This document shows, in pieces, positions 1,053 to 52,634 of a stretch of DNA of 64,000 bases. Position 1 is the stretch's first letter. Every line of letters starts with the position of its first letter. Position numbers and translations under genes: made by a program. The DNA is from Pseudokineococcus basanitobsidens (GTDB lineage Bacteria > Actinomycetota > Actinomycetes > Actinomycetales > Quadrisphaeraceae): the NCBI RefSeq assembly GCF_037482545.1, contig NZ_JBBIAA010000001.1:321226-385225 (forward strand), read 5' to 3'. The notes beneath the pieces are model-generated. The model saw only the letters and a list, made by a program, of their open reading frames with translations, searched no databases and was not told the DNA's origin.

Positions 1053-1156
1053 CCGGCGGCGCCCCGACCCGGTGACGCCCCGACCCGGTGACGCCGTCGT
1101 CCACGACGAGCTCGCACACCCCGTCGCCCTCTCCCTCGACGCGGACCGGGCTCCGG

Positions 1157-3088: not shown

Positions 3089-3115
3089 GCTAGGGCGTCG
3101 GCACCGCGGGTGGGG

Positions 3116-3730
3116 TCACGACCGGGCGAGCGGCCGGTCCCCGCGCGCCACCTCCGGCCGGCGGGCGACGAGCGCGGCGACGAGGAGCGAGGCCAGGAGC
3201 GCGCCGGTCGTCCCCAGCACCATGTCGCCGAGCGTGTCCGCGTAGGCGGTGGCCTCCTCGGGGCCGCCGCGGACGAAGGTCGCGTACTCGCCGACCTCCC
3301 ACACCAGCGCCGCCAGGCAGCCGCAGCCCGCGCCGAGCAGCACCCGCACCCACGTCGGCAGCGACCGCGGCAGCACCAGGGCCAACCCCGCCGCGAGCAG
3401 TCCCCAGTTGACCAGGTGCGCCGCGTCGTCGAACCACACCACGGCGTCGAAGAGGTCGAGCGCGTTACCCACGAGGTCGACCGCCCACGGCAGGCTGACG
3501 AGCAGGTCGGCGAGCGCGGGGAAGCGGACCGCGCGGCGCGCCCGGCGCCGCACGAGCGCCCACGCCACCGGCACGAGGAGCAGCCCCAGCGGGTAGACGA
3601 CGGCCCGTCCGGTCATCGCCTTGTCGGAGAACCGCTCCCAGCCGGGGAACGCGAGCGCGAGCGCCAGGAGCCCGAGCACCACGACCTTGACGGCGAGGTC
3701 GGCCACGAGGACGCGGCGGTCGGTGGTCAC
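3116..3730 (-). CDS. hypothetical integral membrane protein
   Basis: 204 aa with 5-6 hydrophobic helices and high GC3. It is co-oriented with the upstream secreted protein. Confidence 0.5.
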   Translation of the reverse strand: MTTDRRVLVADLAVKVVVLGLLALALAFPGWERFSDKAMTGRAVVYPLGLLLVPVAWALVRRRARRAVRFPALADLLVSLPWAVDLVGNALDLFDAVVWFDDAAHLVNWGLLAAGLALVLPRSLPTWVRVLLGAGCGCLAALVWEVGEYATFVRGGPEEATAYADTLGDMVLGTTGALLASLLVAALVARRPEVARGDRPLARS

Positions 3731-3842: not shown

Positions 3843-5669
3843 TCAGCGCTCGTAGAAGACCCCGAGCTCCGAGATCGACGTGAAGTGCGCCGAGCCGCCC
3901 GGCTGGCCGATGATCCGCACGCCGTCGCCCCACGTGCGGCGGAACCGCAAGGTGAAGGTGCGTCGCGGACCCGCCTCGGGCGAGAACGGGTAGTCGGGGG
4001 TGATGCGGAGGTCCTCGACGTCCGTCCACACGAAGTCGCGCCGCACCTGCACGCGCAGACCCCCCGCGAAGGCGGAGAACCAGCCGCCGTCGTCCGACAT
4101 CTCTCCGCTCGTGTAGTCGACCCGGTTCATCCGCACCGGCTCGGCGAGCGTGTAGCCCCAGTAGTCGATGCCCTTGTTCGTGCCGTCGAAGCTGTCCTCG
4201 CTGCCCTCGACGCTGCCGTCGTTGTAGAACTCGCGGTTGCCCCGGTGGGCGCACACCTCGAGGGGGGCGACGACGACGTGCCCGCGGACCAGGTTCTCCG
4301 CCTGCGAGGGCAGCCGCGCGCCGTTGCGAGGACGCTGCCGCGTCCACGGCGTCACCTGCACGCGCCGGAGGTTGAAGTTGTAGTTGTCCTCCGGCGACGG
4401 CAGCGGCGCCGTCCACCAGTTGCTCTGCATCCACATCGTCAGGCCGTCCACGCTGACGTACTTGGAGGGCAGCACCGTGCCGTAGCCGCCGTTCTTGGGC
4501 CGGTGGTCGGGGTCGCTCATCTGGTACCACTCGACGAGGCCGGCGCTGTGCACGTGGAACCTCCGCCACGGCCCCCACGGCCGTGGCGCCTCGTAGAGCT
4601 CGAACGTCGGGTCGCTCCACGACGCGTAGAGGAAGCGGTCCAGCGGCGCGTTGTACAGGACGTGCCCCTGCGAGACCACCGTCAGGGCGCCGTTCTTGCC
4701 GGGGCGCGTGTCGGGGAACCGGCGGAGCGGGTCGTGGAGCACGGGTGCCTTGTCCTCGATCCGCGGTGACCAGGAGGGGTGCCCGTCCCGGACACCGGTG
4801 AGGAACTCCCAGCTCTTCCGGTCCTGCACCGCGTCGCCGGGGACCCGCGCGAGGTAGAGGTCCACCGGGTCCGGCACCGTGCCGGCGTTCGACGTCCGCC
4901 AGTTCCAGTCCAGGCCGTAGGCGTAGACGTAGGCGCCGTCGACCGGCCCGAGCGTGGGGACGGCGTGCTCGGAGTCCCGACCGAGGTCGGCGAAGAAGAC
5001 GGTCGTGAAGCGGTGGTCGGTGAACATCGGCTCGTCGGTCGTCGTCCACGTCCGGCCGTGGTCGTCCGAGCGGCTGATGCTGGCGGCGGGCGCGTCGTCG
5101 AAGGCGGCCTCGCCGTACCGCAGGTCCTGGACCGCCAGGTAGAGCACCCCGCCGACGCAGACGATGCCCGTGGGCTTGCGGTTGTAGCGCTCCGGGTCGC
5201 TCCAGACGCGGGCGACCTCCTCGGACTCCGCGAGCTTCTCGCCGCGCAGCCCGGTCTCGGGGGTGCCCTGCACCCGGTTCACCACCAGGTCCCGGAAGGG
5301 CTCGTCGCTGAAGCCGCGGCCGTCGCCGTTGGCCGTGTACACCCAGTCGTCGTCACCCCAGGCGCACGGCCACAGGTCGCCGTCGCTGCCCGGTGCTGCG
5401 TAGGTGCCGGCCACCTCCACGGTCGCCGTCGCGAAGAAGGTGCTCGTCTCCTGGCGCAGGTCGCCCGGCTCGACGTCGTCACGGCGACCGCCCTCGGTCG
5501 GCGCCTGCTGCGGCACCTCATGGGTGACCTGTTGGGCCCACGCCGCCGGCGCCGCAGCCACGGCGCCGCCCGCGAGGGCTCCGCCGCCGAGGAAGCCGCG
5601 TCGCGACAGGCCGTGCCGCGGCTCGTCTCCGTGGTGTCCGTCCGAGCCGTGCACCTCGTGCTCCGCCAT
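3843..5669 (-). CDS. secreted (Tat signal) BNR/Asp-box beta-propeller protein, sialidase-like fold
   Basis: 608 aa. The N-terminus (SRRGFLGGGALAGGAVAAAPAAWA) is a twin-arginine signal, and SRSDDHGRTWT is a BNR/Asp-box motif. Likely an exported glycan-active protein. Confidence 0.7.
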   Translation of the reverse strand: MAEHEVHGSDGHHGDEPRHGLSRRGFLGGGALAGGAVAAAPAAWAQQVTHEVPQQAPTEGGRRDDVEPGDLRQETSTFFATATVEVAGTYAAPGSDGDLWPCAWGDDDWVYTANGDGRGFSDEPFRDLVVNRVQGTPETGLRGEKLAESEEVARVWSDPERYNRKPTGIVCVGGVLYLAVQDLRYGEAAFDDAPAASISRSDDHGRTWTTTDEPMFTDHRFTTVFFADLGRDSEHAVPTLGPVDGAYVYAYGLDWNWRTSNAGTVPDPVDLYLARVPGDAVQDRKSWEFLTGVRDGHPSWSPRIEDKAPVLHDPLRRFPDTRPGKNGALTVVSQGHVLYNAPLDRFLYASWSDPTFELYEAPRPWGPWRRFHVHSAGLVEWYQMSDPDHRPKNGGYGTVLPSKYVSVDGLTMWMQSNWWTAPLPSPEDNYNFNLRRVQVTPWTRQRPRNGARLPSQAENLVRGHVVVAPLEVCAHRGNREFYNDGSVEGSEDSFDGTNKGIDYWGYTLAEPVRMNRVDYTSGEMSDDGGWFSAFAGGLRVQVRRDFVWTDVEDLRITPDYPFSPEAGPRRTFTLRFRRTWGDGVRIIGQPGGSAHFTSISELGVFYER

Positions 5670-5936: not shown

Positions 5937-7295
5937 ATGACCCCGAGCTCGTCCCCGGGCGGTGGGCCGACGCGCCGCGCCGTCCTCGGTGGTGCCGTGG
6001 GTGCCCTCGCGACCGCGGCGTTCGCCGGGTGTGGCCGCAGCGGCGCGGGAGGCGACGGCCGACCGCTGGAGTTCTGGCAGTTCTACGCGCCGCAGTCGCA
6101 GACCCAGCCCGACCTCGCGGCCCAGAACGAGTGGTTCCTCTCGGCCGTCTCCGACTGGAACGCCGCGCACCCCGAGCAGGTGCGGCCCGTCTTCATCCCC
6201 AACTTCACCGATCCCTCGAACACCCGCCTGGCGACCGCCTTCGCCTCCGGCAGCGGCCCGGACGTGTTCCTCATCAGCCCGGGTGACTTCCTGCGCTACT
6301 ACAACGGCGGCGCGCTCCTGGACCTGCGTCCGTACATGGAGGCCGAGGCGGTCGACGACTTCATCGGCGAGGTGCTGGCGACGCGGGTCGTGGGGGACGG
6401 CGTCTACGCGCTGCCGATGGAGGTGGAGCCGCTCGTCATGTTCTACAGCCGCCCCGCGTGGGAGGCAGCCGGGCTCAGCGAGGGTGACATCCCGACGACG
6501 TGGGACGCGATGCTCGACGTCGCCGAGCGACTCACGACGCCGCAGCAGTCGGGGCTCGTCTTCGAGACGACGCCCGGCTACTTCCAGAACTTCACCTGGT
6601 ACCCGTGGCTCTGGCAGGGCGGCGGGGACGTCGTCGACCCGCGGACGCAGCAGGCCACCTTCGACAGCCCGGCGGCACGCCAGGCGCTGGATCTCTTCGG
6701 GTCCGCGATCCGGCGCGGGGTGGCGCCGCGGACCCTGCCGGCAGCGGGCGACGTCGCCGGCGCCTTCGCCGAGGGGTATGCGGCGACCTGGCAGTCGGGG
6801 ATCTGGCAGGTGGCCAACTTCCGCGCCAACCAGCCGGAGTTCGACTTCGGGGTCTTCACGCTGCCGACACCTCCCGACGGTGTCCCCCGGACGGTCCTCG
6901 GCGGGTGGGCCTGGTGCGTCAACGCGCGGGGACGGGACCCCGACGCGGCCGCCCGCTTCGTCGTCGAGACCATCGGCAGCACCTCGGACGCCTCCGTCGA
7001 GCGCCTCGTGCAGTGGTGCTCGGTGGCCAAGACGGACATGCCCCCACGGCAGTCCGTGGACCGGCGGATGCGGGCCGCCGGCGTCTACGACGACCCGGTC
7101 ATGGGCTTCTTCCGCGAGCAGGCGCTGCCGACCGGCAGGGGGGAACCGCGGTACCCACCGGTCCTCTACAAGGCGGTGTCCAACGCCATCCAACGGGTGC
7201 AGGCGGCCGGCGCCTCACCGGCCGAGCAGGCCGCCGAGGCCCAGGCGGCGGTCGAGGCCTTCCTGCGGACCTACGACGGAGGTTCCCTGGTATGA
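5937..7295 (+). CDS. sugar ABC transporter substrate-binding lipoprotein (CUT1 family)
   Basis: 452 aa. Has a signal peptide plus lipobox (AAFAGC) and the solute-binding family 1 fold. Leads an operon with two permeases. Confidence 0.85.
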   Translation: MTPSSSPGGGPTRRAVLGGAVGALATAAFAGCGRSGAGGDGRPLEFWQFYAPQSQTQPDLAAQNEWFLSAVSDWNAAHPEQVRPVFIPNFTDPSNTRLATAFASGSGPDVFLISPGDFLRYYNGGALLDLRPYMEAEAVDDFIGEVLATRVVGDGVYALPMEVEPLVMFYSRPAWEAAGLSEGDIPTTWDAMLDVAERLTTPQQSGLVFETTPGYFQNFTWYPWLWQGGGDVVDPRTQQATFDSPAARQALDLFGSAIRRGVAPRTLPAAGDVAGAFAEGYAATWQSGIWQVANFRANQPEFDFGVFTLPTPPDGVPRTVLGGWAWCVNARGRDPDAAARFVVETIGSTSDASVERLVQWCSVAKTDMPPRQSVDRRMRAAGVYDDPVMGFFREQALPTGRGEPRYPPVLYKAVSNAIQRVQAAGASPAEQAAEAQAAVEAFLRTYDGGSLV

Positions 7296-8257
7296 CCACC
7301 CTCACCTCGAGAGCCCGCACCGGAGGCGACGAGCCGGCGGCGCGAGGTCGTCGCCGCAGCGTCTCGCCCGCGAGCCGCGCCCGGCAGCGCCGGGAGACGC
7401 GCGCCGCGGTCCTGTTCCTGCTGCCGGACTCCCTCGGTCTGCTCGTCTTCGTCTTCGTGCCGATGGTGCTCGCCATCGCCCTGGGCTTCTTCTCCCTCGA
7501 CGGCTTCGGCAACCTCCGCTTCATCGGCGTGGCGAACTACGTCCGCATGGTCGGGGACCCCCAGTTCTTGCAGAGCGCGGTCGTCACGGTCACCTACCTC
7601 GTGGTGCTCGTGCCCGCCGTCTTCGTCGTCTCGCTGCTGCTGGCCCTCCTCGTGCAGCAGAAGGCGCCCTTCATGGGCGCCATCCGCAGCGCGCTGTTCG
7701 CCCCCTACGTGGTGAGCCTCGTCGTCGTCGGGCTGCTGTGGCAGTTCATGCTCGCCGACCGGGTCGGCATCCTGAACCGGATGCTCGCGACGGTCGGCGT
7801 CCGGGACGTCTCCTGGCTCGGCGACCCGCAGTACACCCTGGGCACGGTCGTGGTGATCAGCATCTGGTTCCAGATGGGTTACTACATGATCATCTTCCTG
7901 GCCGGGCTCCAGGACATCCCCGGCGAGTACTACGAGGCGGCGCGCATCGACGGCGCGAACGCCTGGCAGCGTTTCCGCTCCATCACCTGGCCGTTGCTGC
8001 GCCCCACGGCGCTCTTCGTGCTCATCACCCTGACCATCGCCGTCATCACCGGTGGCTTCGACCTCATCTACATCCTCACCGGCGGAGGTCCTGCGGGTTC
8101 GACCTCGCTGCTCGTCTACTTCGTCTACGAGCAGGCGTTCCTCTTCGGCGAGTACGGCTACGCGGCGGCGGTCGGGTCGGTCCTGGTCCTGGTCCTGCTG
8201 CTGTGGTCGGCGCTGATGTTCAAGCTCACGAGGGGAGGTCGGCTCGATGACGAGTGA
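7292..8257 (+). CDS. sugar ABC transporter permease (MalF-like)
   Basis: The ATG at 7292 overlaps the upstream stop (ATGA). Six TM segments and an EAA-type loop (EAARIDGANAWQRFRSITWPLL). Confidence 0.85.
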   Translation: MTTLTSRARTGGDEPAARGRRRSVSPASRARQRRETRAAVLFLLPDSLGLLVFVFVPMVLAIALGFFSLDGFGNLRFIGVANYVRMVGDPQFLQSAVVTVTYLVVLVPAVFVVSLLLALLVQQKAPFMGAIRSALFAPYVVSLVVVGLLWQFMLADRVGILNRMLATVGVRDVSWLGDPQYTLGTVVVISIWFQMGYYMIIFLAGLQDIPGEYYEAARIDGANAWQRFRSITWPLLRPTALFVLITLTIAVITGGFDLIYILTGGGPAGSTSLLVYFVYEQAFLFGEYGYAAAVGSVLVLVLLLWSALMFKLTRGGRLDDE

Positions 8258-9140
8258 CGCTGCCGCCCGGACAGGTCGGTCGGCGCGGTCCGAGGACGCG
8301 CGGACGGCGGGACCCGCGCGAGGAGACAGGCGGTGGACCCGTCGCTCGGTCGTGCTGCTCCTCGTCGGCGCGGGCGTCGGTCTGGTGACGGTCTTCCCGC
8401 TCGTCTACATGGTGCTCAGCGCCTTCAAGACGGCGGGCGACATCTACGGCACCTCCCTGCTGCCGCCGACGTGGACGCTGGAGAATTTCCGCTACGTCTT
8501 CACCGAGGTCCCTTTCGCCCGGTACATGCTCAACAGCCTCGTGGTGTCGGCGGTGGTGACGGTCGCGGCGCTGCTGTTCCACTCGATGGCGGCCTACGCG
8601 CTGGCGCGGCTGCGATTCCCCGGACGGGAGGCGGTGTTCCTCGTCATCTTCTCGACCCTCCTGGTGAGCCTGCCCGTGGTCCTCATCCCCTCCTTCGTCG
8701 TCGTGCGTTCGCTGGGGATGATCGACAGCTACGCCGGGCTCATCGTGCCGCCCATCTTCAGCGCCTTCGGCATCTTCCTCCTGCGGCAGTTCTACCTCTC
8801 GCTGCCGGCGGAGCTGGAGGAGGCCGCCCTCGTCGACGGGGCGGGCTACTGGCGGATCTACTGGAGCGTCGTCCTGCCGCTGTCACGCCCGATCCTCGCG
8901 GCGCTGGCGGTCTTCTTCTTCCTGGCCAACTGGAACTCCTTCGTCTGGCCGCTCACGATCACCGCCGACCCCGGCCTGCGCGTCGTCCAGGTGGGCATCA
9001 GCACCTTCCAGCAGCAGTACGCGTCCAGCCAGAACTACATCGTGGCGGCGTCCACCGTCGCCGCGCTGCCGACGATGCTGCTGTTCTTCTTCTTCCAGAA
9101 GCAGATCACCGAGTCCATCAAGACCTCCGGCCTCAAGTGA
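8247..9140 (+). CDS. sugar ABC transporter permease (MalG-like)
   Basis: 297 aa with an EAALVDGAGYWRIYWSVVLPLSRP motif. Its start overlaps the end of the previous permease. Confidence 0.85.
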   Translation: MTSDAAARTGRSARSEDARTAGPARGDRRWTRRSVVLLLVGAGVGLVTVFPLVYMVLSAFKTAGDIYGTSLLPPTWTLENFRYVFTEVPFARYMLNSLVVSAVVTVAALLFHSMAAYALARLRFPGREAVFLVIFSTLLVSLPVVLIPSFVVVRSLGMIDSYAGLIVPPIFSAFGIFLLRQFYLSLPAELEEAALVDGAGYWRIYWSVVLPLSRPILAALAVFFFLANWNSFVWPLTITADPGLRVVQVGISTFQQQYASSQNYIVAASTVAALPTMLLFFFFQKQITESIKTSGLK

Positions 9141-9168
9141 GGCGCCTCCCCACCCGCAGGAGCTACCC

Positions 9169-10233
9169 GTGAACCCGCTCGACCTCATGGCCACGCTGCG
9201 TCCTGACGCCAGGACGCGGTCGGCGAGCCCGGAGAACCCCGCCGGCGAGCCCGGGGGCGGGGGTGGCGCCACCGACGGCACGGGGGCCGCGGCGGCGCGC
9301 GACCTGGGTCGGGGCTGGAAGGTGTCGCCCTCGGTCGAGGTCGCCCCCGGCGCCACCCACCCCCTGCTGGAGGCAACGGGCAGCGGTGTCGTGCAGCACC
9401 TGTGGGTGACGACGCACCCGCGCCACTGGCGCGAGCTCGTGCTGCGCATGCACTGGGACGGCGACCCGGCGCCGGCCGTGGAGGTGCCTCTCGGCGACTT
9501 CTTCGGCCAGGGCTGGGGCGAGTTCGCCCAGCTCTCCTCGCAGGTCGTGGCGGCCAACCCCCACGGCGGTCTCAACAGCTACTGGCGCATGCCCTTCCGT
9601 CGCGGCGCGCGCATCACCCTGGACAACCTCGGCGCCGACGCCGCGGTCGTCTACTACCAGGTCACCTGGTCGGAGGAGGAGGTCGGCGAGCACGAGGGGT
9701 ACCTGCACGCCCAGTGGCGCCGCGACCACCCCCTGGAGCGCGGGCGTACCCACGTCCTCCTCGACGGTGTGGAGGGCGCAGGGCACTACGTCGGCACCTA
9801 CCTCGCGTGGGGCGTCAACTCCTCCGGCTGGTGGGGCGAGGGCGAGGTGAAGTTCTACCTCGACGACGACGACGACCTGGCGAGCGTGTGTGGCACCGGC
9901 ACGGAGGACTACTTCGGCGGCGCCTGGAACTTCGACGTCCCCGGGCAGGGCTACACCACCTACTCGACCCCCTACCTCGGCCTGCACCAGGTGCTCCGGC
10001 CGGACGGGTTGTACCGCAGCCAGCAGCGCTTCGGCATGTACCGGTGGCACCTGCCCGACCCGGTGCGCTTCCGCAGCGCGCTGAGGGTGGACGTCCAGGC
10101 GCTCGGCTGGCGCTCCGGCGGCCGGTACCTGCCGCTCGCCGACGACATCGCCTCGACGGCCTTCCTCTACCTCGACCGGACGTCGACGTCGCGTCCGTCA
10201 GCGCCGGGGGTGGACGAGATGGAGGTGCTCTGA
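9169..10233 (+). CDS. GH172 / DUF2961 family glycoside hydrolase (difructose-dianhydride / alpha-furanosidase family)
   Basis: 354 aa. Shows DUF2961 hallmarks (WDGDPAPAVEVPLGDFFGQGWG, GTGTEDYFGGAWN) and is a paralog of 44724..45788. Last gene of the ABC operon. Confidence 0.8.
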   Translation: MNPLDLMATLRPDARTRSASPENPAGEPGGGGGATDGTGAAAARDLGRGWKVSPSVEVAPGATHPLLEATGSGVVQHLWVTTHPRHWRELVLRMHWDGDPAPAVEVPLGDFFGQGWGEFAQLSSQVVAANPHGGLNSYWRMPFRRGARITLDNLGADAAVVYYQVTWSEEEVGEHEGYLHAQWRRDHPLERGRTHVLLDGVEGAGHYVGTYLAWGVNSSGWWGEGEVKFYLDDDDDLASVCGTGTEDYFGGAWNFDVPGQGYTTYSTPYLGLHQVLRPDGLYRSQQRFGMYRWHLPDPVRFRSALRVDVQALGWRSGGRYLPLADDIASTAFLYLDRTSTSRPSAPGVDEMEVL

Positions 10234-11252
10234 CACGTCCGCGCATCCACCCCTGCGGGTCGGCGGGAGCTGCCCCGCACGAGCAGCCGCGCGTCGAGCA
10301 CCACCGTCCGTGCGGGGACGTCCGTAGCCTCGCCGCGCACCCGCTCCAGGAGCAGCTGCGCCGCACGCGTCCCGAGCTCGTAGGCCGGCTGCGCCACGAC
10401 CGTGACGGCCGGCTCGACCAGCGTGCTCCAAGGGGCGTCGTCGAAGGCGACCAGCCCGACGTCCGCTCCCATCCGGAGCCCATGGTCCGCCAGGGCCCGC
10501 AGGACGCCGAGCGCCATGAGCGAGTTGGCGACGAGGAGGGCGTCCGGCGGCTCGTCGGAGTCCAGCAGCGAGGCAGCGGCCGACCGACCGCCTTCCACGG
10601 TGAAGGGCGCCCTCCGGACCAGCGACCCGTCGGCCGACGGCGCCCCCACGGCGTCGCGGTACCCCCGCAGCCGCTCCTCCGCCGTGGCCACCCCCTCGGG
10701 GCCCGTGACGCAGGCCACACGGCCCCACCCCTCCTCGAGGAGGTGCCGTGCGGCGGCCCCGGCCGCCCCCCGCGAGTCGACGAGCACCGCGTCGACGGCG
10801 TCGGGCGACGGTCGGTCGACGCTCACGACCGGGATGCCCGACCGGACGAGCCGGGCGGCGCCGCACCCGGGCGCCGAGGGGGACAGGAGGACGCCGGCGA
10901 CCTGCTCCAGCTCGGCGACGGCGAGGTACTGCGCCTCCTTGGCGGCGTCCTCGTCGGTGTTGCAGAGCAGTACGGAGTAGCCGTTGGCCTGGGCGATGTC
11001 CTCGACGCCGCGGGCGACGGCGGTGAAGAACGGGTTGCTCACGTCGGCGATGAGCAGGGCCCAGACGTCGGTGCGCCGCCGCCGCAGGTTCCGCGCCACG
11101 CCGTTGGGCCGGTAGTCCAACGACGTGGCGGCCTCGAGCACCCGGCGCGCGAGCGCCGGGTCCACGGTGCTGACGCCGTTGAGGGCGCGCGAGGCTGTCG
11201 CGGGGGAGACGCCGGCCATGCGCGCCACGTCCGACAGCTTGGTCACACCCAC
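10167..11252 (-). CDS. LacI family transcriptional regulator
   Basis: N-terminal HTH (LSDVARMAGVSPATASRALNG) plus a periplasmic-binding-fold sugar domain. Its 3' end overlaps the convergent GH172 gene by 67 bp. Confidence 0.8.
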   Translation of the reverse strand: MGVTKLSDVARMAGVSPATASRALNGVSTVDPALARRVLEAATSLDYRPNGVARNLRRRRTDVWALLIADVSNPFFTAVARGVEDIAQANGYSVLLCNTDEDAAKEAQYLAVAELEQVAGVLLSPSAPGCGAARLVRSGIPVVSVDRPSPDAVDAVLVDSRGAAGAAARHLLEEGWGRVACVTGPEGVATAEERLRGYRDAVGAPSADGSLVRRAPFTVEGGRSAAASLLDSDEPPDALLVANSLMALGVLRALADHGLRMGADVGLVAFDDAPWSTLVEPAVTVVAQPAYELGTRAAQLLLERVRGEATDVPARTVVLDARLLVRGSSRRPAGVDARTCQSTSISSTPGADGRDVDVRSR

Positions 11253-15756: not shown

Positions 15757-15762
15757 GACGCG

Positions 15763-44723: not shown

Positions 44724-45788
44724 TCAGGGCAGCCGCTGCTCCACGGGCGCGAGGCCGAAGGGCACGTGCGGCAGCTCCTGGTACCAGTAGGCGACCGAGG
44801 AGAGGTCGTCGCTGCGCCGGTTGGCGTGCCCGTGCTCGATGCTCACCCGGATCGAGCGGGTGAAGGGCACGGGGTCCTCGACGTGGAACCGGTACACCGA
44901 GATCTGCCCCGACCAGTTCGGCCCGCCCGGCAGCGTGATGCCGTGGTACGGCGCGCTGTAGGGCTCCGAGGGGCACCACGCGGTGTTCACGTAGTCCTCC
45001 GTGCCGGTCCCGTGCAGGGACGGCGGGAAGGGCTCGTCGTCGACGAAGATCATGTCGTCGCCCTCGCCGTACCAGTTGCCCTCGTCGGTCTCGCGGAGGT
45101 TGACGACGTTGAGCACGCAGCCGACGTAGTGCCCCCGGCCGCGCGCCTCGAGGATGGTGTAGTTCTCCGCCCCGGACAGGTTGGTGCCGCCGAACTGCAC
45201 CTCGTCGTTGGTCAGCCCCTGCTCGGAGATCCCCGGCGTCGGGTTGACCCGGCGCCACTGCGCGTGGAAGCGGCCGAGTCCCTCCTCGAGCTCGTCCAGC
45301 TCGTCGTAGTCGACGTAGTAGTAGACCCACATGTCCTGCTGCTCGCACTCGCTCACCAGCTCGAAGCGCGCGCCGTCGGAGAACGGCATGTGGAACCAGG
45401 AGTTGAAGCCCTTGCCGTCCTGCGGGCTCATCTGCAGCGGCGCCGAGACGAAGTTCGTCGTCCGGGCGTGGCCGACGCCGAAGAAGTCCCCGAGCGGCAC
45501 GAGGACGCTCGGGTGCTCGGCGCCGTCCCACGTGACCCGCAGCACGAGACGCCGCAGGTAGTCGGCGTCCGTGCCGGCGTCGAACCCGGCGGGGGCGACC
45601 GTCATCCAGACGTGGTTCACCGAGCCCGCGCCCGCGATGTCGGCGAGCACGACCGTCTCGCCGGGGCGCACCGTCACCCGGTCGTCGTTGCCGCCCGTGC
45701 GGTCCCAGCTGGACGCGCGGCGACGGCGCGAGGTCCGCAGCCGCGGCAGGTCCCGCAGGCTGCTGCCGAAGGTGCCGTATCCCGTCAT
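44724..45788 (-). CDS. GH172 / DUF2961 family glycoside hydrolase (second paralog)
   Basis: 354 aa with RVTWDGAEHPSVLVPLGDFFGVGH and HGTGTEDYVNTAW. Its ATG lies 1 nt after the sulfatase stop. Confidence 0.8.
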   Translation of the reverse strand: MTGYGTFGSSLRDLPRLRTSRRRRASSWDRTGGNDDRVTVRPGETVVLADIAGAGSVNHVWMTVAPAGFDAGTDADYLRRLVLRVTWDGAEHPSVLVPLGDFFGVGHARTTNFVSAPLQMSPQDGKGFNSWFHMPFSDGARFELVSECEQQDMWVYYYVDYDELDELEEGLGRFHAQWRRVNPTPGISEQGLTNDEVQFGGTNLSGAENYTILEARGRGHYVGCVLNVVNLRETDEGNWYGEGDDMIFVDDEPFPPSLHGTGTEDYVNTAWCPSEPYSAPYHGITLPGGPNWSGQISVYRFHVEDPVPFTRSIRVSIEHGHANRRSDDLSSVAYWYQELPHVPFGLAPVEQRLP

Positions 45789-45789: not shown

Positions 45790-47265
45790 TCAGCTGCTCC
45801 TGCTCTCGGTGGGGGCCTCGGTGATGCCGGCCGGGACCGGCTGGCTGGGGTGCGGCACGTCGCCGAGCTCGTGCTGCCGGCGCCACATCCGCGCCTCGAG
45901 ATCGCGCCGCACGTCGGCGTAGGCCGGGTCGTCGGCGACGTTGCGCACCTCGTCCGGGTCCTCGGCGAGGTCGTAGAGCTCCCACTCCGGCGGGAAGGTC
46001 CCCGGTCCGGTGCCCGGGAGCCCCATGCCGTCGTTGTAGAAGTAGATGAGCTTGTACCGCTCGGTGCGGAACCCGTAGTGCGCCAGGGCGTGGTGGATCG
46101 GGTCGTCGTTCTCGTAGTAGCGGTAGTACATGCCGTCGACCTCCGGCTCCGGGTCCCCGCCGGTGAGGTCGGCCCAGAAGCTGCGCCCGTGCATCCGCGG
46201 GTGCGGCGCGACGCCGACGGCCTCGAGGACCGTCTGGGCGATGTCCACGTTCGTCACCGTGCCCGCGTGGACGGTGCCCGGGGGGACCGCCCGCGGGTAG
46301 GAGAGCACGAAGGGCATCCGCAGCGACTCCTCGTACATGAACCGCTTGTCGTACCAGCCGTGGTCGCCGAGGAAGAAGCCCTGGTCGGAGGTGTACACCA
46401 GCAGCGTGTCGTCGAAGAGCCCCCGTTCGCGCAGCCGGTCGGTGATTCGCCCGACGTTGTCGTCGACCGAGGCGACGCAGCGCAGGTAGTCCTCCATGTA
46501 GCGCTGGTACTTCCAGAGCGTCAGCTCCTCGCCGGACAAGCCTTCCGGCGGGTCTTGCTTGAGGTCGACGGGGTAGAGGTGGTCGGCGATCGTCATCGCC
46601 TGGTGCCGGGCGGCGAGCGACCTCGTCTCCCAGCCCGTGTCCCCGTCGTGGAAGGTCGCCGGCACCGGGATCGGGTCGGTGTACATGTCCGCGTGCTTCG
46701 CGTCGGGGAACCAGGAGCGGTGCGGCGCCTTGTGGTGGACGAGGACGCACCACGGCGCGTCGCCGCCGAGGCCGTCCAGCCACTCGAGCGCGAGGTCGGT
46801 GATGACGTCGGTGGCGTAGCCGGGCCGCGTGACCATGCCCTCGGGGGTGCGGAACTCGGGGTCGACGTACCGACCCTGGTCGAGCAGCACCTCCCACCGG
46901 TCGAACGACTGCGGGTCGTGGCCCTCCCCGTGGCCGAGGTGCCACTTGCCGAAGACCGCCGTGCGGTAGCCGGCCTCCTTGAGCAGCGACACGAAGGTGG
47001 GCTGGCTCGCGTCGATCGGCGTCGACAGCGTCGTCACGCCGTTCACGTGGCTGTAGGTGCCCGTGAGGATCGAGGCGCGGCTCGGGGTGCAGATCGAGTT
47101 GGTGCAGAAGCAGCTCTCCAGGAGCGCACCCGCGCGGGCGATCTCGTCGATGCGCGGGGTCTCGTTGACGACCGAGCCGTACGCGCCGACGGCGTGCGCG
47201 GCGTGGTCGTCGGTGAGCACCACGACGACGTTCGGGCGGCGGTTGGGCGCCTGGTCCTGGGGCAC
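45790..47265 (-). CDS. sulfatase (formylglycine-dependent arylsulfatase family)
   Basis: Sulfatase signature CTPSRASILTG and GKWHLG. GTG at 47265 with a GGACGAGGAGG Shine-Dalgarno. The maximal ORF begins inside the palindrome at 47361. Confidence 0.8.
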   Translation of the reverse strand: MPQDQAPNRRPNVVVVLTDDHAAHAVGAYGSVVNETPRIDEIARAGALLESCFCTNSICTPSRASILTGTYSHVNGVTTLSTPIDASQPTFVSLLKEAGYRTAVFGKWHLGHGEGHDPQSFDRWEVLLDQGRYVDPEFRTPEGMVTRPGYATDVITDLALEWLDGLGGDAPWCVLVHHKAPHRSWFPDAKHADMYTDPIPVPATFHDGDTGWETRSLAARHQAMTIADHLYPVDLKQDPPEGLSGEELTLWKYQRYMEDYLRCVASVDDNVGRITDRLRERGLFDDTLLVYTSDQGFFLGDHGWYDKRFMYEESLRMPFVLSYPRAVPPGTVHAGTVTNVDIAQTVLEAVGVAPHPRMHGRSFWADLTGGDPEPEVDGMYYRYYENDDPIHHALAHYGFRTERYKLIYFYNDGMGLPGTGPGTFPPEWELYDLAEDPDEVRNVADDPAYADVRRDLEARMWRRQHELGDVPHPSQPVPAGITEAPTESRSS

Positions 47266-47345: not shown

Positions 47346-47361
47346 ATGTACGCGCATACAT
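47346..47361. promoter_or_regulatory. 16-bp palindrome ATGTACGCGCATACAT (one mismatch) in divergent promoter region
   Basis: Lies between the sulfatase gene (-) and the sugar-phosphate isomerase gene (+). Near-identical to 50789..50804. Confidence 0.5.
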
Positions 47362-47488: not shown

Positions 47489-48292
47489 GTGGTCGCCATC
47501 GGGGTGCAGCTCTGGACGGTGCGGGACCGCCTCGACGCCGACGTGGACGAGCTCTTCGCGGACCTCGCGTCCGCGGGCGCCGAGGTGGTGGAGCCCTTCG
47601 GGCTGGGCGACCCGGACGTCGCGCCGGGGACGCGGGTGGAGCAGGCCGGGCGGCTGGCGCGCAGCGCGGCCGCCGCGGGGCTCGCCGTCGTCTCCGCGCA
47701 CGCCTTCCTGCCCCCGGCGGACCGGGCCTCCGAGCTCGTCGACGAGATGGGGGCCCTGGGCGCGGGGACCGCGGTGGCCGCCACCCCCGACAGCCTCGCC
47801 GGCTTCTCGCGCGAGGCCCTGACGACCACCACGTCCGTGGTCCGCTACGCGCAGGCCCTCGACGCCCTGGCGGAGGCCTGCTCCGGCCAGGGGCTCCGGG
47901 TCGGCTACCACAACCACGCGTGGGAGTGGGCCCGGACGGAGGACGGGGAGCCGGCCTACGACCGCCTCTGGCGAGAGCTCTCCCCGCTCGTCGTCGCCGA
48001 GGTGGACCTGCTGTGGGCGGCCGCGGCCGGCCAGGACGTCGTCGAGGTCGTCGCGCGGCTGGGGGACCGCGTGCGCCTCCTGCACGCGGGGGACGCCTCG
48101 CCCGCCGGCAACCCGGAGCACCAGCTGCCGTCGGGGCAGGGCGACGTCCCGCTGGCGGCCGCGCTCGCGCGTGCGCCGGGGGTCGAGGCCCTCCTCGTCG
48201 AGGCGACGACGCCGCCGCCGGGCCGCACCGCCCTCGACCTCGTCCGGGACAGCATCACCTGGCTCGCCGCACGGGTGCCGCCGGCGCGCTGA
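47489..48292 (+). CDS. sugar phosphate isomerase/epimerase (xylose-isomerase-like TIM barrel, IolE/IolI-like)
   Basis: 267 aa with GLRVGYHNHAWEW and TIM-barrel AP-endonuclease-2 family features. Confidence 0.7.
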   Translation: MVAIGVQLWTVRDRLDADVDELFADLASAGAEVVEPFGLGDPDVAPGTRVEQAGRLARSAAAAGLAVVSAHAFLPPADRASELVDEMGALGAGTAVAATPDSLAGFSREALTTTTSVVRYAQALDALAEACSGQGLRVGYHNHAWEWARTEDGEPAYDRLWRELSPLVVAEVDLLWAAAAGQDVVEVVARLGDRVRLLHAGDASPAGNPEHQLPSGQGDVPLAAALARAPGVEALLVEATTPPPGRTALDLVRDSITWLAARVPPAR

Positions 48293-48378
48293 CCCCGTCC
48301 GCCCACCGGGCCGCGGACGCGTCCCGGTGAGGAGCGCCCGCGCGGTGCTCGACCGCACCCGACGACACAGGAGGACCC

Positions 48379-49542
48379 GTGGACGACCCCGGTGACGCCC
48401 CCACCCGCGTGGCGCTCGTCGGCGCCGGCAACATCGCCGGCCCGTACGCGCAGAGCCTCGCCCGCCACCCCGAGCTCCGCCTCGTCGGCGTGCACGACGT
48501 CGACGGGGGCCGGGCCCGCGACCTCGCCGCCGCGACCGGCTGCCGGGCCTACGCGTCGCCGGCCGAGCTGGCCGACGACGGGGTCGACGTCGCGGTCAAC
48601 CTCACCAGCGCCCCGCACCACTTCGCGACCACGCGCGAGCTGGTCCGGCTCGGGCTCGACGTGTTCAGCGAGAAGCCGCTCGCGCTGAACGCGGAGGAGG
48701 CGCGCGAGCTGGTCGCCCTCGCGCGGGCGACGTCGGTCCGGGTCGCCTGCGCGCCCTCCCTGTGGCTGGGGCGCTCCTACCAGGAGGTCGGGGCCCGCCT
48801 GCGCGAGGGCGAGCTGGGGGCGGTCCGGCTCGTCACCGCGGAGGTGCACCAGGGACGCATCGAGACCTGGCACCCGTCGCCCGCCGCCTTCTTCCGCGTC
48901 GGGCCCGTCGTCGACACGGGCGTGTACGCGCTCGCGTACGTCACCGCGACGCTCGGGCCGGTCCGCCGCGTGCAGGCGACGTCCGCCAGGCTGCTGCCCG
49001 AGCGCACGTCCTCGGCGGGGGAGGCCGTCGAGACGGCCACCGACGACGCGTGGCTGGTGTCGGCCGTGCTGGGGAGCGGCGCGCTGCTCCGGCTGACCTG
49101 CGACTTCTACGTCGACGCCGAGACGGTGCCGCGGGGGGTCGCCTTCCACGGCGACCGCGGCAGCCTGCGCCTCCTCGACCTCTTCGCGCCGGACGCCGCC
49201 GTCGAGCGGGCGGTCGCGGGCGAGCCGTTCGTCGCCGAGGCCCCGGGCGACGCGCTCGAGCTGGACTGGGCCCTGGGGGTCCTCGACCTGGCGCGCGCCC
49301 GCCGGCGGGGGCGTCCCCACCGGCTGTCCGTCGAGCACGCCGGGCACGTCGTCGACGTGCTCGAGGCGGTGGGCCGCTCCGCGGCGACGGGGGCGGCGGT
49401 GGAGGTCACGTCGTCCTTCGAGCTGCCGGCCCTCGACCCGCCCGCGCGTCGCGACGACCCGCTCGGCACCGACGGCCCGCTCGGAGCCGACCGCCCGGCG
49501 GGCGCGGGCACGGGGGAGGAGGAGGGGGCGCGCCCGGGCTGA
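48379..49542 (+). CDS. Gfo/Idh/MocA family oxidoreductase (inositol-dehydrogenase-like)
   Basis: RVALVGAGNIAGPYAQSLARHPELRLVGVHD Rossmann N-terminus. GTG preceded by CAGGAGGACCC. Confidence 0.75.
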   Translation: MDDPGDAPTRVALVGAGNIAGPYAQSLARHPELRLVGVHDVDGGRARDLAAATGCRAYASPAELADDGVDVAVNLTSAPHHFATTRELVRLGLDVFSEKPLALNAEEARELVALARATSVRVACAPSLWLGRSYQEVGARLREGELGAVRLVTAEVHQGRIETWHPSPAAFFRVGPVVDTGVYALAYVTATLGPVRRVQATSARLLPERTSSAGEAVETATDDAWLVSAVLGSGALLRLTCDFYVDAETVPRGVAFHGDRGSLRLLDLFAPDAAVERAVAGEPFVAEAPGDALELDWALGVLDLARARRRGRPHRLSVEHAGHVVDVLEAVGRSAATGAAVEVTSSFELPALDPPARRDDPLGTDGPLGADRPAGAGTGEEEGARPG

Positions 49543-50788: not shown

Positions 50789-50804
50789 ATGTATGCGCAT
50801 ACAT
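50789..50804. promoter_or_regulatory. perfect 16-bp palindrome ATGTATGCGCATACAT upstream of ABC operon
   Basis: Lies 71 bp upstream of the substrate-binding protein ATG at 50875 and 60 bp downstream of the LacI gene stop. Confidence 0.55.
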
Positions 50805-52548: not shown

Positions 52549-52634
52549 TCCCGCCCCCGTCCCCGCGCGGCCGGCCGTCCCCCGCGGCCGGCCACGCGGC
52601 CCCTCCCTCGCCCTCACGAGAGGTGGTGGTCCCC

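What the first reader, a model, noticed from the sequence alone, without database searches (positions are those of the whole stretch)
9169..10233. Two divergent GH172 (DUF2961) paralogs within 36 kb, one fused to an importer operon and one coupled to a sulfatase
The GH172 family is small and recently defined. Its activities are difructose-dianhydride synthase/alpha-fructofuranosidase and alpha-arabinofuranosidase. Paralog 1 is the last gene of a CUT1 ABC operon. Paralog 2 (44724..45788) starts 1 nt after the stop of a formylglycine-type sulfatase. This suggests action on a sulfated furanoside, which is not a described GH172 substrate. Motif differences between the paralogs (DFFGQGWG versus DFFGVGHA) hint at distinct specificities.
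Basis: partly seen in the sequence, partly recalled or inferred. Interest (0 to 1): 0.6.

Follow-up and report, generated by a model that had tools for sequence, protein, structure and literature searches.

The report
Two GH172 genes, one sulfatase-coupled
This actinobacterial DNA has two furanosidase (GH172) genes: one sits in an ordinary, already described locus for eating mycobacterial D-arabinan, and the other is fused into a rare but conserved two-gene operon with a sugar sulfatase, which points to a sulfated sugar substrate nobody has described.

Summary
Both ORFs are full-length GH172/DUF2961 proteins, 36% identical, with both catalytic glutamates.

Paralog 1 (9169-10233) is 64% identical to ExoMA1, the characterised exo-alpha-D-arabinofuranosidase, and keeps its Asn specificity residue. 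It closes a CUT1 importer operon next to a Tat-secreted DUF4185/GH183 protein. This is a known kind of D-arabinan locus.

Paralog 2 (44724-45788, minus strand) belongs to a large, uncharacterised actinobacterial clade that usually sits in the same kind of locus.

Only a small monophyletic subclade (199/200 bootstraps; six sequences) is coupled to a sulfatase. The sulfatases co-diverge with it (100/100).

A 16-bp palindrome found only twice in the window lies upstream of the sulfatase-GH172 operon and of an SBP_5 importer/GH1 operon. I read it as a shared LacI operator.

The sulfatase keeps the S1_11 triad for 6-O-sulfated gluco-configured pyranoses. The sulfate is therefore probably on a hexopyranose, not on the furanoside.

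The subclade has lost a Trp (W237G) beside the catalytic strand. The substrate remains unknown.

Verdict: one ordinary locus plus a new variant of a known kind. Interest is moderate.

The parts
3843..5669 (-). DUF4185 (GH183-type) protein with a Tat signal (SRRGFLGG...AWA/QQ). Candidate secreted endo-D-arabinanase, divergent from the paralog-1 operon.
   Evidence: Pfam PF13810 at 47.1 bits against a 39.5-bit cutoff. N-terminus read. Homologs of 44-69% identity sit next to GH172 genes in many loci. No PDB sequence hit, so it is distant from EndoMA1.
5937..7295 (+). CUT1 solute-binding protein. The start is 5937 (ATG) or 5997.
   Evidence: SBP_bac_1 5e-31 and SBP_bac_8. Orthologs of 46-52% identity flank P2-type GH172 genes elsewhere.
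7292..8257 (+). ABC permease 1 of the paralog-1 operon.
   Evidence: BPD_transp_1.
8247..9140 (+). ABC permease 2 of the paralog-1 operon.
   Evidence: BPD_transp_1.
9169..10233 (+). GH172 paralog 1. ExoMA1-type cytoplasmic exo-alpha-D-arabinofuranosidase (inferred).
   Evidence: E 8.4e-158 to PDB 8IC8 and 63.9% identity. It has GTGTED, WWGEG and GGAW-N, the Asn corresponding to ExoMA1 N253.
10167..11252 (-). LacI-family regulator convergent with paralog 1. The two 3' ends overlap by 67 nt.
   Evidence: LacI plus Peripla_BP domains.
44724..45788 (-). GH172 paralog 2. Second gene of the sulfatase-GH172 operon. P2-type clade, sulfatase-linked subclade.
   Evidence: PF11175 at 286.6 bits. PDB hits 4KQ7, 7V1V and 8AH3 at E 1e-74 to 1e-80. 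Predicted fold matches GH172 structures at TM 0.73-0.74. Subclade monophyletic in 199/200 bootstraps. W237G and F155V are subclade-specific.
45790..47265 (-). Cytoplasmic formylglycine-type sulfatase, S1_11-like. First gene of the operon. The long ORF runs to 47361.
   Evidence: Sulfatase plus SGSH_C. CTPSR motif. Best PDB hits are 5G2V GlcNAc-6-sulfatase (6e-108), 7P24 and 7LHA. D306/R308/H391 triad conserved. No signal peptide.
47346..47361 (.). Operator-like palindrome ATGTACGCGCATACAT in the divergent promoter region upstream of the sulfatase.
   Evidence: Only two sites in 64 kb, 0 expected by chance. Equivalent sites occur in L001 and L084.
47489..49542 (+). Xylose-isomerase-like TIM-barrel gene (47489-48292) and Gfo/Idh/MocA oxidoreductase gene (48379-49542). 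Present only in the window version of the locus, so not core.
   Evidence: Pfam. Absent from L001, L081, L082 and L084.
49626..50729 (+). LacI-family regulator of the locus. Conserved next to the module in all relatives.
   Evidence: LacI plus Peripla_BP_3. Orthologs of 44-76% identity in L001, L081, L082, L084 and L091.
50789..50804 (.). Perfect palindrome ATGTATGCGCATACAT upstream of the SBP_5 gene. Second copy of the operator-like site.
   Evidence: Equivalent sites upstream of the SBP_5 gene in L001, L081 and L084.
50875..56262 (+). Opp-type (SBP_5) ABC importer: binding protein 50875-52548, permeases 52623-53615 and 53612-54577, double ATPase 54574-56262.
   Evidence: Pfam. The binding protein's closest solved relatives bind chitobiose, mannosides and cellobiose, not peptides.
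56259..57209 (+). Alpha/beta-hydrolase (possible esterase). Present in the window and in L081 only.
   Evidence: Abhydrolase_6 and Hydrolase_4.
57275..58441 (+). GH1 beta-glucosidase, close homolog of the beta-1,2-glucosidase SGR_2426.
   Evidence: E 9.5e-149 to 8KAP. NEP and TENG catalytic Glu and the +1 subsite residues M171, Q229 and W291 are conserved. Orthologs in L001, L082 and L084.
58491..62045 (+). SOGP-like (GH94 superfamily) glycoside phosphorylase, 1184 aa. Present in the window and in L081.
   Evidence: SOGP_N 2.6e-45, SOGP_2nd, Glyco_hydro_94.

Best explanation
The window holds two separate sugar-utilisation systems, each using a GH172 retaining alpha-D-furanosidase.

System 1 (3.8-11.3 kb) is a D-arabinan locus of the Microbacterium arabinogalactanolyticum type.
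- A Tat-secreted DUF4185/GH183 enzyme cuts D-arabinan outside the cell.
- A CUT1 ABC importer takes up the oligosaccharides.
- Cytoplasmic paralog 1, an ExoMA1 relative, removes terminal alpha-D-arabinofuranose.

System 2 (44.7-62 kb) is a LacI-controlled regulon.
- An SBP_5-type ABC transporter imports a small sulfated hetero-oligosaccharide or glycoside.
- A cytoplasmic S1_11-like exo-sulfatase removes a 6-O-sulfate from a gluco-configured pyranose.
- Paralog 2 is translated from the same mRNA. It removes an alpha-D-arabinofuranosyl-type cap.
- A SGR_2426-like GH1, and in this genome an SOGP-like phosphorylase, break down the beta-glucoside part.

Paralog 2 comes from a clade that normally serves D-arabinan-type loci. 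In a small subclade it was recruited to the sulfatase and lost a Trp next to the catalytic strand (W237G). I read that loss as a remodelled plus-side subsite.

Shown: gene order, coupling, conservation, co-divergence, shared palindrome, conserved catalytic and specificity residues.
Inferred: every enzymatic activity, the order of steps and the nature of the substrate.
For: P1:
- E 8.4e-158 and 64% identity to ExoMA1, with Asn after the -1 Trp.
- Neighbours are DUF4185 with a Tat signal and a CUT1 operon.

The P2 clade as a whole:
- At least 12 of 80 species loci have a DUF4185 homolog adjacent and 25 of 80 have a CUT1 binding protein. Three also have a P1-type GH172. Metagenome loci look the same.
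- Cys at the alphaFFase1 Gly299 position, as in Dg79. Dg79 is an exo-alpha-1,5-D-arabinofuranosidase with no DFA I activity.

The coupling of P2 to the sulfatase:
- 1-nt spacer with an internal Shine-Dalgarno sequence.
- The same sulfatase-to-GH172 junction (1-nt gap or 4-nt overlap) in L081, L084 and L091, and adjacency in L001.
- GH172 subclade monophyletic in 199/200 bootstraps, sulfatase subclade in 100/100.
- Arthrobacter pigmenti carries an independent pair: a sulfatase of 58% identity joined to a P1-type GH172, in the same SBP_5/GH1 locus, which also holds a P2-type gene after GH1.

Co-regulation:
- The palindrome ATGTA(C/T)GCGCATACAT occurs only at 47346 and 50789, with 0 expected.
- Related sites sit at the equivalent intergenic positions in L001, L084, L081 (SBP_5 only) and L082.

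Sulfatase specificity:
- Best solved relatives are S1_11 exo-6-O-sulfatases.
- D306/R308/H391 equal the BT4656 triad D385/R387/H471.

GH1: NEP/TENG catalytic residues and the M171/Q229/W291 +1 subsite are conserved.

Subclade change: Gly at position 237 in 5 of 5 members, against Trp in 74 of 81 relatives. Residue 237 directly precedes predicted strand 238-242, which carries W239 and E242.
Against: - No member of the P2-type actinobacterial clade has been assayed. Its arabinofuranosidase activity rests on synteny and one specificity residue.
- Many P2-type genes are orphans among housekeeping genes, for example next to uvrC-rapZ-whiA in L012.
- I know of no natural compound that combines alpha-D-Araf, a 6-sulfo-gluco-pyranose and a beta-glucoside. 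A literature search found nothing relevant.
- No formylglycine-generating enzyme is encoded in the window.
- Close sulfatase orthologs (about 70% identity) occur in unrelated contexts. These include SsuA/NMT1-like sulfur-scavenging operons and CUT1, fucose or GH35 loci. The sulfatase is therefore a portable part.
- L081 lacks a detectable operator upstream of its sulfatase.
- The window DUF4185 is too divergent to hit EndoMA1 by sequence. No GH116 beta-D-arabinofuranosidase is present in the window.
- The structural model is of moderate quality (pLDDT 71.6) and poorest in the active-site loops.
Confidence: 0.6

Rival explanations
1. The sulfate sits on the furanoside itself, for example 5-O-sulfo-alpha-D-arabinofuranoside. 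The sulfatase unmasks the very sugar that paralog 2 then removes.
For: Translational coupling and co-divergence of exactly these two genes. S1_11 enzymes attack sulfate on a primary hydroxyl, and O5 of a furanose is also primary (inference). The subclade-specific W237G and F155V changes enlarge the region next to active-site residues.
Against: The sulfatase keeps the Asp/Arg/His triad that binds O4 and O3 of a gluco-configured pyranose in BT3177 and BT4656. The same triad is kept in about 70%-identical orthologs that have no GH172 partner. A GH1 beta-glucosidase is a conserved member of the module, so a gluco-pyranose is available as the sulfated residue.
Confidence: 0.15
2. The adjacency has no joint function. 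Paralog 2 is an ordinary D-arabinan exo-arabinofuranosidase that landed beside a portable sulfatase, and each enzyme acts on a different substrate.
For: The sulfatase family moves between very different contexts. The pairing is rare: 1 of 80 species loci and 0 of 80 metagenome loci. The rest of the P2 clade has no sulfatase. The window already has a full D-arabinan locus 35 kb away.
Against: The pair persists through several rearrangements of the surrounding locus in six sequences, from at least three actinobacterial genera (Pseudokineococcus, Brachybacterium, Arthrobacter) plus unnamed metagenome contigs. Both partners form matching monophyletic groups. Spacing is 1 nt or overlapping. A second, independent sulfatase-GH172 pair exists in A. 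pigmenti. The operator-like site is shared with the importer operon.
Confidence: 0.15
3. Paralog 2 is an alpha-D-fructofuranosidase / DFA I synthase-hydrolase like alphaFFase1.
For: 43.7% identity to alphaFFase1, as close as to Dg79. Placement relative to alphaFFase1 versus Dg79/BACUNI is unresolved (77/200). Gly237 matches alphaFFase1 Gly265 in the HMMER alignment.
Against: Cys272 occupies the Gly299 position. The equivalent Cys in BACUNI_00161 was judged to clash with fructofuranose O2. Dg79, which has the same Cys, shows no DFA I activity. The loop carrying the +1 residue Lys147 is absent. No GH32 or fructan genes are nearby.
Confidence: 0.05

Closest known systems
D-arabinan degradation locus of Microbacterium arabinogalactanolyticum (GH183 EndoMA1/2, ABC importer, GH172 ExoMA1, GH116 ExoMA2; PMC10509167)
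   Same: Paralog 1 is 64% identical to ExoMA1 and has the same Asn specificity residue. The logic is the same: a secreted DUF4185/GH183 enzyme, an ABC importer and a cytoplasmic GH172 without a signal peptide.
   Different: No GH116 exo-beta-D-arabinofuranosidase was found in the window. The DUF4185 protein is too divergent to match EndoMA1 by sequence. Isomerase and kinase candidates are only weakly supported.
Dg79 (DG02479, PDB 8AH3) of Dysgonomonas gadei and BACUNI_00161 (4KQ7): GH172 members with Cys after the -1 Trp
   Same: Paralog 2 shares the W-C-P motif, both catalytic Glu and the Ca-site residues. The predicted fold matches at TM 0.73-0.74. Dg79 is a selective exo-alpha-1,5-D-arabinofuranosidase.
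   Different: Only 41-43% identity. Paralog 2 belongs to a separate actinobacterial clade (200/200 bootstraps). It has a 3-4 residue insertion before the catalytic strand and a GVGH motif instead of GQGW. It has only about 12 residues beyond the aligned core and no predicted long C-terminal helix; in BACUNI_00161 and alphaFFase1 that helix makes the hexamer contacts. None of the known enzymes is linked to a sulfatase.
alphaFFase1 of Bifidobacterium dentium (GH172 founding member, DFA I synthase/hydrolase; PMC8605356)
   Same: Same family, same nucleophile and acid/base positions (E291/E270 equivalents). 43.7% identity to paralog 2.
   Different: Gly299 is replaced by Cys (P2) or Asn (P1). The Lys147 loop of the +1 subsite is absent. 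There is no fructan context.
S1_11 carbohydrate sulfatases (BT4656, BT3177, BT1628, exo-L-Gal-6-sulfatase 7LHA)
   Same: E 1e-97 to 6e-108. FGly motif, metal and catalytic residues and the Asp/Arg/His recognition triad are all conserved.
   Different: Cytoplasmic rather than periplasmic. Actinobacterial. It lacks the region that reads the C2 N-acetyl or N-sulfate group: about 40 residues are missing between the two aligned blocks. It is partnered with a GH172, which has not been described.
SGR_2426 beta-1,2-glucooligosaccharide cluster of Streptomyces griseus (PMC12369401)
   Same: The window GH1 is a close homolog (E 9.5e-149) with the same +1 subsite residues. A SOGP-like phosphorylase follows it.
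   Different: The importer here is SBP_5/Opp-type rather than the Lin1841-like CUT1 type. The S. griseus paper never mentions a sulfatase (0 occurrences), and the cluster genes it describes (SGR_2422-2427) are an esterase, an ABC transporter, the GH1 and a GH193, with no GH172.

Membership tests
GH172 (DUF2961), both paralogs | PF11175 domain above the gathering score. | tested here: met
   296.5 and 286.6 bits against a 27-bit cutoff.
GH172 (DUF2961), both paralogs | Catalytic nucleophile Glu in G-T-G-T-E-D and acid/base Glu in W-(W/Y)-G-E-G (alphaFFase1 E291/E270; Dg79 E277/E256). | tested here: met
   Both motifs are present in P1 and P2.
GH172 (DUF2961), paralog 2 | Double jelly-roll fold. 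| tested here: met
   The AlphaFold2 model (pTM 0.79, pLDDT 71.6) matches 7V1V, 8AH3 and 4KQ7 at TM 0.73-0.74. Viral double jelly-roll capsid proteins come next.
GH172 (DUF2961) | Oligomer with the active site at a protomer interface; retaining alpha-D-furanosidase activity. | not testable with these tools
   Needs multimer modelling or experiment.
ExoMA1-type exo-alpha-D-arabinofuranosidase (paralog 1) | Close full-length similarity to ExoMA1, and Asn at the position of N253 that blocks fructofuranose. | tested here: met
   E 8.4e-158, 63.9% identity, GGAW-N. Groups with ExoMA1 in 200/200 bootstraps.
Actinobacterial D-arabinan utilisation locus (Microbacterium type) | Secreted GH183/DUF4185 endo-enzyme plus ABC importer plus cytoplasmic GH172. 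| tested here: met
   DUF4185 at 47.1 bits against 39.5, with a Tat signal. CUT1 operon ends in P1.
Actinobacterial D-arabinan utilisation locus (Microbacterium type) | GH116 exo-beta-D-arabinofuranosidase and D-arabinose isomerase/kinase in the locus. | tested here: not met
   No GH116 among the called genes of the window that I scanned. There is only a weak Fucose_iso_C hit below cutoff and an FGGY kinase about 10 kb away.
alphaFFase1-type DFA I synthase/hydrolase (paralog 2) | Small residue (Gly299) after the -1 Trp, and +1 residues Glu85'/Lys147'. | tested here: not met
   Cys272 takes the place of Gly299 and the Lys147 loop is absent.
S1 formylglycine sulfatases, subfamily S1_11 (sulfatase 45790-47265) | C-x-P-x-R FGly motif and conserved metal and catalytic residues. 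| tested here: met
   CTPSR, DDH, GKWH and DQG...DHG...DK all align with BT4656.
S1 formylglycine sulfatases, subfamily S1_11 (sulfatase 45790-47265) | Recognition triad Asp/Arg (O4) and His (O3) from the C-terminal part (BT4656 D385/R387/H471). | tested here: met
   D306, R308 and H391 align to the triad. They are conserved in 123-124 of 126 relatives.
S1 formylglycine sulfatases, subfamily S1_11 (sulfatase 45790-47265) | Formal assignment by SulfAtlas subfamily HMM or phylogeny; presence of a maturating FGE in the genome. | not tested
   SulfAtlas models are not available here. There is no FGE in the 64-kb window and the rest of the genome is unseen.
SGR_2426-type GH1 beta-1,2-glucosidase (57275-58441) | GH1 catalytic NEP/TENG glutamates and +1 subsite residues M171, Q229, W291. 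| tested here: met
   All are conserved in the alignment to 8KAP. N228 is replaced by Thr, but the paper itself says N228 is not conserved.

The most novel reading that the evidence does not exclude
A small group of Actinobacteria has built a dedicated regulon for a natural sulfated glycoside or oligosaccharide that has not been described. The group includes Pseudokineococcus, a Brachybacterium, Arthrobacter pigmenti and the organism of this window. The substrate would carry a 6-O-sulfo gluco-configured pyranose, beta-glucosyl residues and an alpha-D-arabinofuranosyl-type cap. The sulfatase-linked GH172 subclade would then be a new specificity within the family, with a plus-side subsite reshaped by the loss of Trp237. 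That would make it the first GH172 working on a sulfated glycan. It would also imply that D-arabinofuranose occurs in sulfated glycoconjugates outside the known mycobacterial polymers.
Probability: 0.3. Interest if true: 0.65.

Novelty: new variant of a known kind. Interest (0 to 1): 0.45.

Why it matters
GH172 has only two known activities: alpha-D-arabinofuranosidase and alpha-D-fructofuranosidase/DFA I synthase. All assayed members come from three organisms.

The large actinobacterial P2-type clade is unassayed. Its sulfatase-coupled subclade gives a concrete, testable lead to a third substrate class, and to an unknown sulfated glycan that soil or surface Actinobacteria feed on.

The locus also supplies a candidate operator and regulator pair, which could be used to find the inducer.

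The paralog-1 locus adds one more example of D-arabinan (mycobacterial cell-wall) scavenging by non-mycobacterial Actinobacteria. That is useful for enzyme discovery but not surprising.

Tried and rejected
- Exact look-up of paralog 2 in public assemblies found nothing. The source organism is known only by its nearest relative, Pseudokineococcus sp. 5B2Z-1, at 92% identity.
- I searched for a formylglycine-generating enzyme in the window, using the L088 FGE as query. Only noise came back.
- The DUF4185 protein and the 583-aa isomerase-like protein gave no PDB sequence hits. NCBIfam gave no specific names for the GH172 proteins, the DUF4185 protein or the SOGP-like protein.
- The consensus promoter/terminator scan of the sulfatase-GH172 region was uninformative in this 75% GC DNA. 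The inverted-repeat tool missed the operator in the sulfatase upstream region. A direct pattern search found it.
- MAFFT misaligned the short segment after the -1 Trp, so the 'G299' column is wrong. I used the pairwise HMMER alignments and the block instead.
- Literature searches for DUF2961 plus sulfatase, for sulfated D-arabinofuranose in Actinobacteria, and for glucose 6-sulfate in bacteria gave nothing relevant.
- I considered whether the GH172 target could be an L-fucofuranoside from fucoidan, because L084 carries a GH29 and a Planctomycete fucoidan locus lists a GH172. By stereochemistry, alpha-D-Araf corresponds to beta-L-Galf/Fucf. As far as I recall, the fucofuranose reported in fucoidan is the alpha-L form. 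I therefore dropped the idea (own reasoning, not tested).
- From memory, some rhizobial Nod factors carry a 6-O-sulfate on GlcNAc, D-arabinose and fucose. I thought of this but did not adopt it, because the conserved glycosidase is a beta-glucosidase-type GH1, not a hexosaminidase.
- The structure prediction could not place residue 237 relative to the active site.
Full report

Yes. The window is about 75% G+C. Third-codon-position composition gives a clean gene map.

- ORF 9169-10233 (+) and ORF 44724-45788 (-) each encode 354 aa.
- Both match Pfam DUF2961/PF11175 at 296.5 and 286.6 bits, against a 27-bit cutoff.
- They are 36% identical to each other.
- Paralog 1 follows an SBP_bac_1 gene and two permease genes on the same strand.
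- Paralog 2 follows a Sulfatase+SGSH_C gene that carries a CTPSR formylglycine motif.
- The junction is TGA-C-ATG, with an AGGAG ribosome-binding site inside the sulfatase 3' end.

Two corrections to the finding. Paralog 2 and the sulfatase are on the minus strand. GH172 is recent but not small in sequence space: 7968 of 8000 scored candidates had E <= 1e-20.

**2. Paralog 1 is ordinary**

- Its best solved relative is PDB 8IC8 (E 8.4e-158; 63.9% identity). This is ExoMA1, the exo-alpha-D-arabinofuranosidase of Microbacterium arabinogalactanolyticum (PMC10509167).
- ExoMA1 is specific for alpha-D-Araf because Asn253, the residue after the -1 subsite Trp, blocks the hydroxymethyl group of fructofuranose. 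Paralog 1 has the same GGAW-N.
- Divergently transcribed from its operon is a DUF4185 protein (47.1 bits against a 39.5-bit cutoff). It has a Tat signal, SRRGFLGG...AWA/QQ. DUF4185 is GH183, the endo-D-arabinanase family.
- The arrangement therefore reproduces the published model: a secreted endo-enzyme, an ABC importer and a cytoplasmic exo-GH172.
- Two parts of that model are missing. There is no GH116 beta-D-arabinofuranosidase in the window. The candidates for D-arabinose catabolism are only weakly supported: a 583-aa protein with a sub-threshold Fucose_iso_C hit, and an FGGY kinase.
- The DUF4185 protein is too divergent to hit EndoMA1 by sequence.

**3. What paralog 2 is**

- Its solved relatives are BACUNI_00161 (4KQ7, 1e-79), alphaFFase1 (7V1V, 5e-74) and Dg79 (8AH3, 1e-73). 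ExoMA1 is far behind at 3e-35. Identity to the first three is 41-44%.
- Both catalytic glutamates are present. They correspond to alphaFFase1 E291 and E270 and to Dg79 E277 and E256, as shown.
- At the Gly299 position of alphaFFase1 it has Cys272, as do BACUNI_00161 and Dg79. The alphaFFase1 authors judged that this Cys clashes with fructofuranose. Dg79 is a selective exo-alpha-1,5-D-arabinofuranosidase with no DFA I activity.
- The loop carrying the +1 residue Lys147 of alphaFFase1 is absent.
- An AlphaFold2 model (pTM 0.79, pLDDT 71.6) matches the GH172 structures at TM 0.73-0.74.

**4. Context of the clade**

I fetched 80 species-level loci with relatives of 58-85% identity and 80 metagenome loci.

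- At least 12 of 80 genome loci have a homolog of the window's DUF4185 adjacent.
- 25 of 80 have a CUT1 binding protein. Several of these are 46-52% identical to the one in the paralog-1 operon.
- Three loci also carry a P1-type GH172. The metagenome loci look the same.
- In some genera the gene is an orphan among housekeeping genes.
- The orthologous sulfatase is adjacent in only one of the 160 loci: L001, Brachybacterium sp. 107.

The P2-type clade as a whole therefore belongs to the D-arabinan world.

**5. The sulfatase link is rare but real**

Exact look-ups of the closest homologs found the same module four more times. All of these loci except L091, a 3.6-kb contig fragment, also carry a LacI gene, an SBP_5 ABC importer and a GH1.

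- Pseudokineococcus sp. 5B2Z-1, L081, 92% identity.
- A Logan contig, L084, 83%.
- A second contig, L091, 79%.
- Arthrobacter pigmenti, L082, 81%.

Gene order and orientation differ between these loci. The sulfatase-to-GH172 junction stays at a 1-nt gap or a 4-nt overlap.

- In a neighbour-joining tree the five module-linked GH172 sequences form one group in 199/200 bootstraps. That group is nested inside GH183/CUT1-linked relatives.
- The partnered sulfatases form one group in 100/100 bootstraps.
- The next relative at 78% identity (P0005) is back in a DUF4185/CUT1 locus.
- A. pigmenti adds an independent case. Its P2-type gene follows GH1. A more distant sulfatase (58% identity) overlaps a P1-type GH172 that has the ExoMA1 Asn.

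**6. Co-regulation**

- The 16-bp palindrome ATGTA(C/T)GCGCATACAT occurs only twice in the 64-kb window, with 0 expected by chance. One copy is at 47346-47361, upstream of the sulfatase. The other is at 50789-50804, upstream of the SBP_5 gene.
- In 1.6 Mb of fetched loci, sites within 3 mismatches fall almost only at the equivalent intergenic positions. In L001 and L084 they lie upstream of both the sulfatase and the SBP_5 gene. In L081 a site lies upstream of the SBP_5 gene only.
- A related site lies in the shared divergent region of L082.
- I read this as the operator of the conserved LacI-family regulator (49626-50729). That reading is an inference.

**7. What the partners say about the substrate**

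- The sulfatase has no signal peptide.
- Its best solved relatives are S1_11 exo-6-O-sulfatases. These are BT4656 (GlcNAc-6S/GlcNS-6S), a mucin-desulfating enzyme, and an exo-L-galactose-6-sulfatase, at E 1e-97 to 6e-108.
- S1_11 enzymes bind O4 through an Asp/Arg pair and O3 through a His. In BT4656 these are D385, R387 and H471. They align to D306, R308 and H391 of the window protein. They are conserved in 123-124 of 126 relatives.
- The region that reads the C2 substituent in BT4656 is missing.
- This favours a 6-O-sulfated gluco-configured (or L-galacto-configured) pyranose as the sulfated residue, not a furanoside.
- The SBP_5 protein resembles oligosaccharide binders (chitobiose, mannoside, cellobiose), not peptide binders.
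- The GH1 is a close homolog of SGR_2426, a beta-1,2-glucosidase (E 9.5e-149). It has the same +1 subsite residues.
- In the window and in L081 a SOGP-like phosphorylase follows the GH1.
- Orthologs of the sulfatase at about 70% identity sit in quite different loci. These include an SBP_5 importer plus GH35 in Isoptericola, CUT1 loci, fucose genes, and SsuA-like sulfur-scavenging operons. The sulfatase is a portable part, and what is specific here is its marriage to GH172.

**8. A change in the enzyme**

- The sulfatase-linked subclade has Gly at position 237, where 74 of 81 relatives have Trp.
- It has Val at position 155, where 62 of 81 have Phe.
- It also has a shortened loop at residues 68-72.
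- Residue 237 directly precedes the predicted strand 238-242. That strand carries W239, the -1/+1 subsite Trp, and E242, the acid/base.
- Residue 155 precedes Y156, which is equivalent to the -1 residue Tyr187' of alphaFFase1.
- Loss of two aromatic side chains beside the active site suggests a remodelled plus-side subsite. This is an inference, because the model is weakest in these loops.

**9. Most likely mechanism**

1. The SBP_5 transporter imports a small sulfated hetero-oligosaccharide or glycoside.
2. The cytoplasmic sulfatase removes a 6-O-sulfate from a gluco-configured pyranose.
3. Paralog 2 removes an alpha-D-arabinofuranosyl-type residue.
4. GH1, and here the phosphorylase, dismantle the beta-glucoside part.

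Gene order, coupling, conservation and residues are shown. All activities and the identity of the substrate are inferred. I know of no natural compound with this composition, and the searches found none.

**10. Novelty and verdict**

- The paralog-1 locus is a new member of a known kind.
- The sulfatase-GH172 operon is a new variant. No paper in the library links DUF2961/GH172 to a sulfatase, apart from a passing CAZyme listing in a fucoidan locus.
The two specificities are distinct in the sense of two clades, and the sulfatase coupling is real. The motif argument and the sulfated-furanoside idea are not supported.
- Interest is moderate at 0.45.

Noticed in passing
window 10167-10233: The 3' ends of paralog 1 (+) and of the convergent LacI-family ORF (-) overlap by 67 nt. 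The last roughly 30 residues of the LacI ORF lie outside its Pfam domains.
   Followed up: no
window 11578-18118: A second CUT1 ABC operon (binding protein plus two permeases) is followed by UPF0261 (N and C domains), a PEP_hydrolase-like protein, an EthD protein and a Gfo/Idh/MocA oxidoreductase. A divergent ROK regulator lies at 18103-19347. This is a conserved-looking sugar or acid catabolic set with no assigned substrate.
   Followed up: no
window 20318-25079: A 583-aa protein has only a sub-threshold L-fucose isomerase C-domain hit and no PDB or NCBIfam match. Next to it are a 3-dehydroquinate-synthase-like protein and an FGGY kinase that is gluconokinase/xylulokinase-like but below all cutoffs. 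These could be the D-arabinose isomerase and kinase expected for a D-arabinan locus.
   Followed up: partly
window 35414-37687: A 757-aa protein with strong coding signal (GC3 0.99) has no Pfam family at E <= 0.01.
   Followed up: no
window 50875-62045: A SGR_2426-like GH1 beta-1,2-glucosidase and a 1184-aa SOGP-like phosphorylase sit behind an SBP_5 (Opp-type) importer. Described beta-1,2-glucan loci use a Lin1841-like CUT1 importer instead.
   Followed up: partly
window 47489-49542: A xylose-isomerase-like TIM-barrel gene and a Gfo/Idh/MocA oxidoreductase gene are inserted between the sulfatase and the LacI gene, in this genome only. They share the operator-bearing divergent promoter region.
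   Followed up: partly
L082 (Arthrobacter pigmenti) 601-3143 and 8788-11068: One locus holds two GH172 genes of different clades. A P1-type gene overlaps a divergent sulfatase (58% identity to the window's) by 1 nt. A P2-type gene starts 1 nt after the GH1. This is an apparently independent second sulfatase-GH172 pairing.
   Followed up: partly
L072, L074-L076, L079 (archaeal MAG contigs): Bathyarchaeia and Freyarchaeota MAG contigs encode P2-type GH172 proteins 57-65% identical to paralog 2. They branch inside the bacterial clade. This suggests transfer between domains, or mis-binned contigs.
   Followed up: no
L012 (Saccharopolyspora) 10001-11080 and L063 (Actinomycetospora): In these genera the P2-type GH172 is an isolated gene. 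In L012 it lies beside uvrC-rapZ-cofD-like-whiA. In L063 it lies between a TetR regulator and a short-chain dehydrogenase. From memory, these genera have arabinose- and galactose-containing walls, so the gene might act on the cell's own arabinan.
   Followed up: partly
L089 and L090 (Logan contigs): Sulfatases 72% identical to the window's sit in an operon with an NMT1/SsuA-like binding protein, a second unrelated sulfatase and a DUF202 protein. This looks like sulfur scavenging rather than sugar catabolism.
   Followed up: partly
window 41224-42444: A sigma-70-family ORF (regions 2 and 4 in its C-terminal third) has a roughly 230-residue N-terminal extension and unusual second-position G+C (0.73). 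The start may be mis-set. The Pseudokineococcus ortholog is only 170 aa (L081).
   Followed up: no
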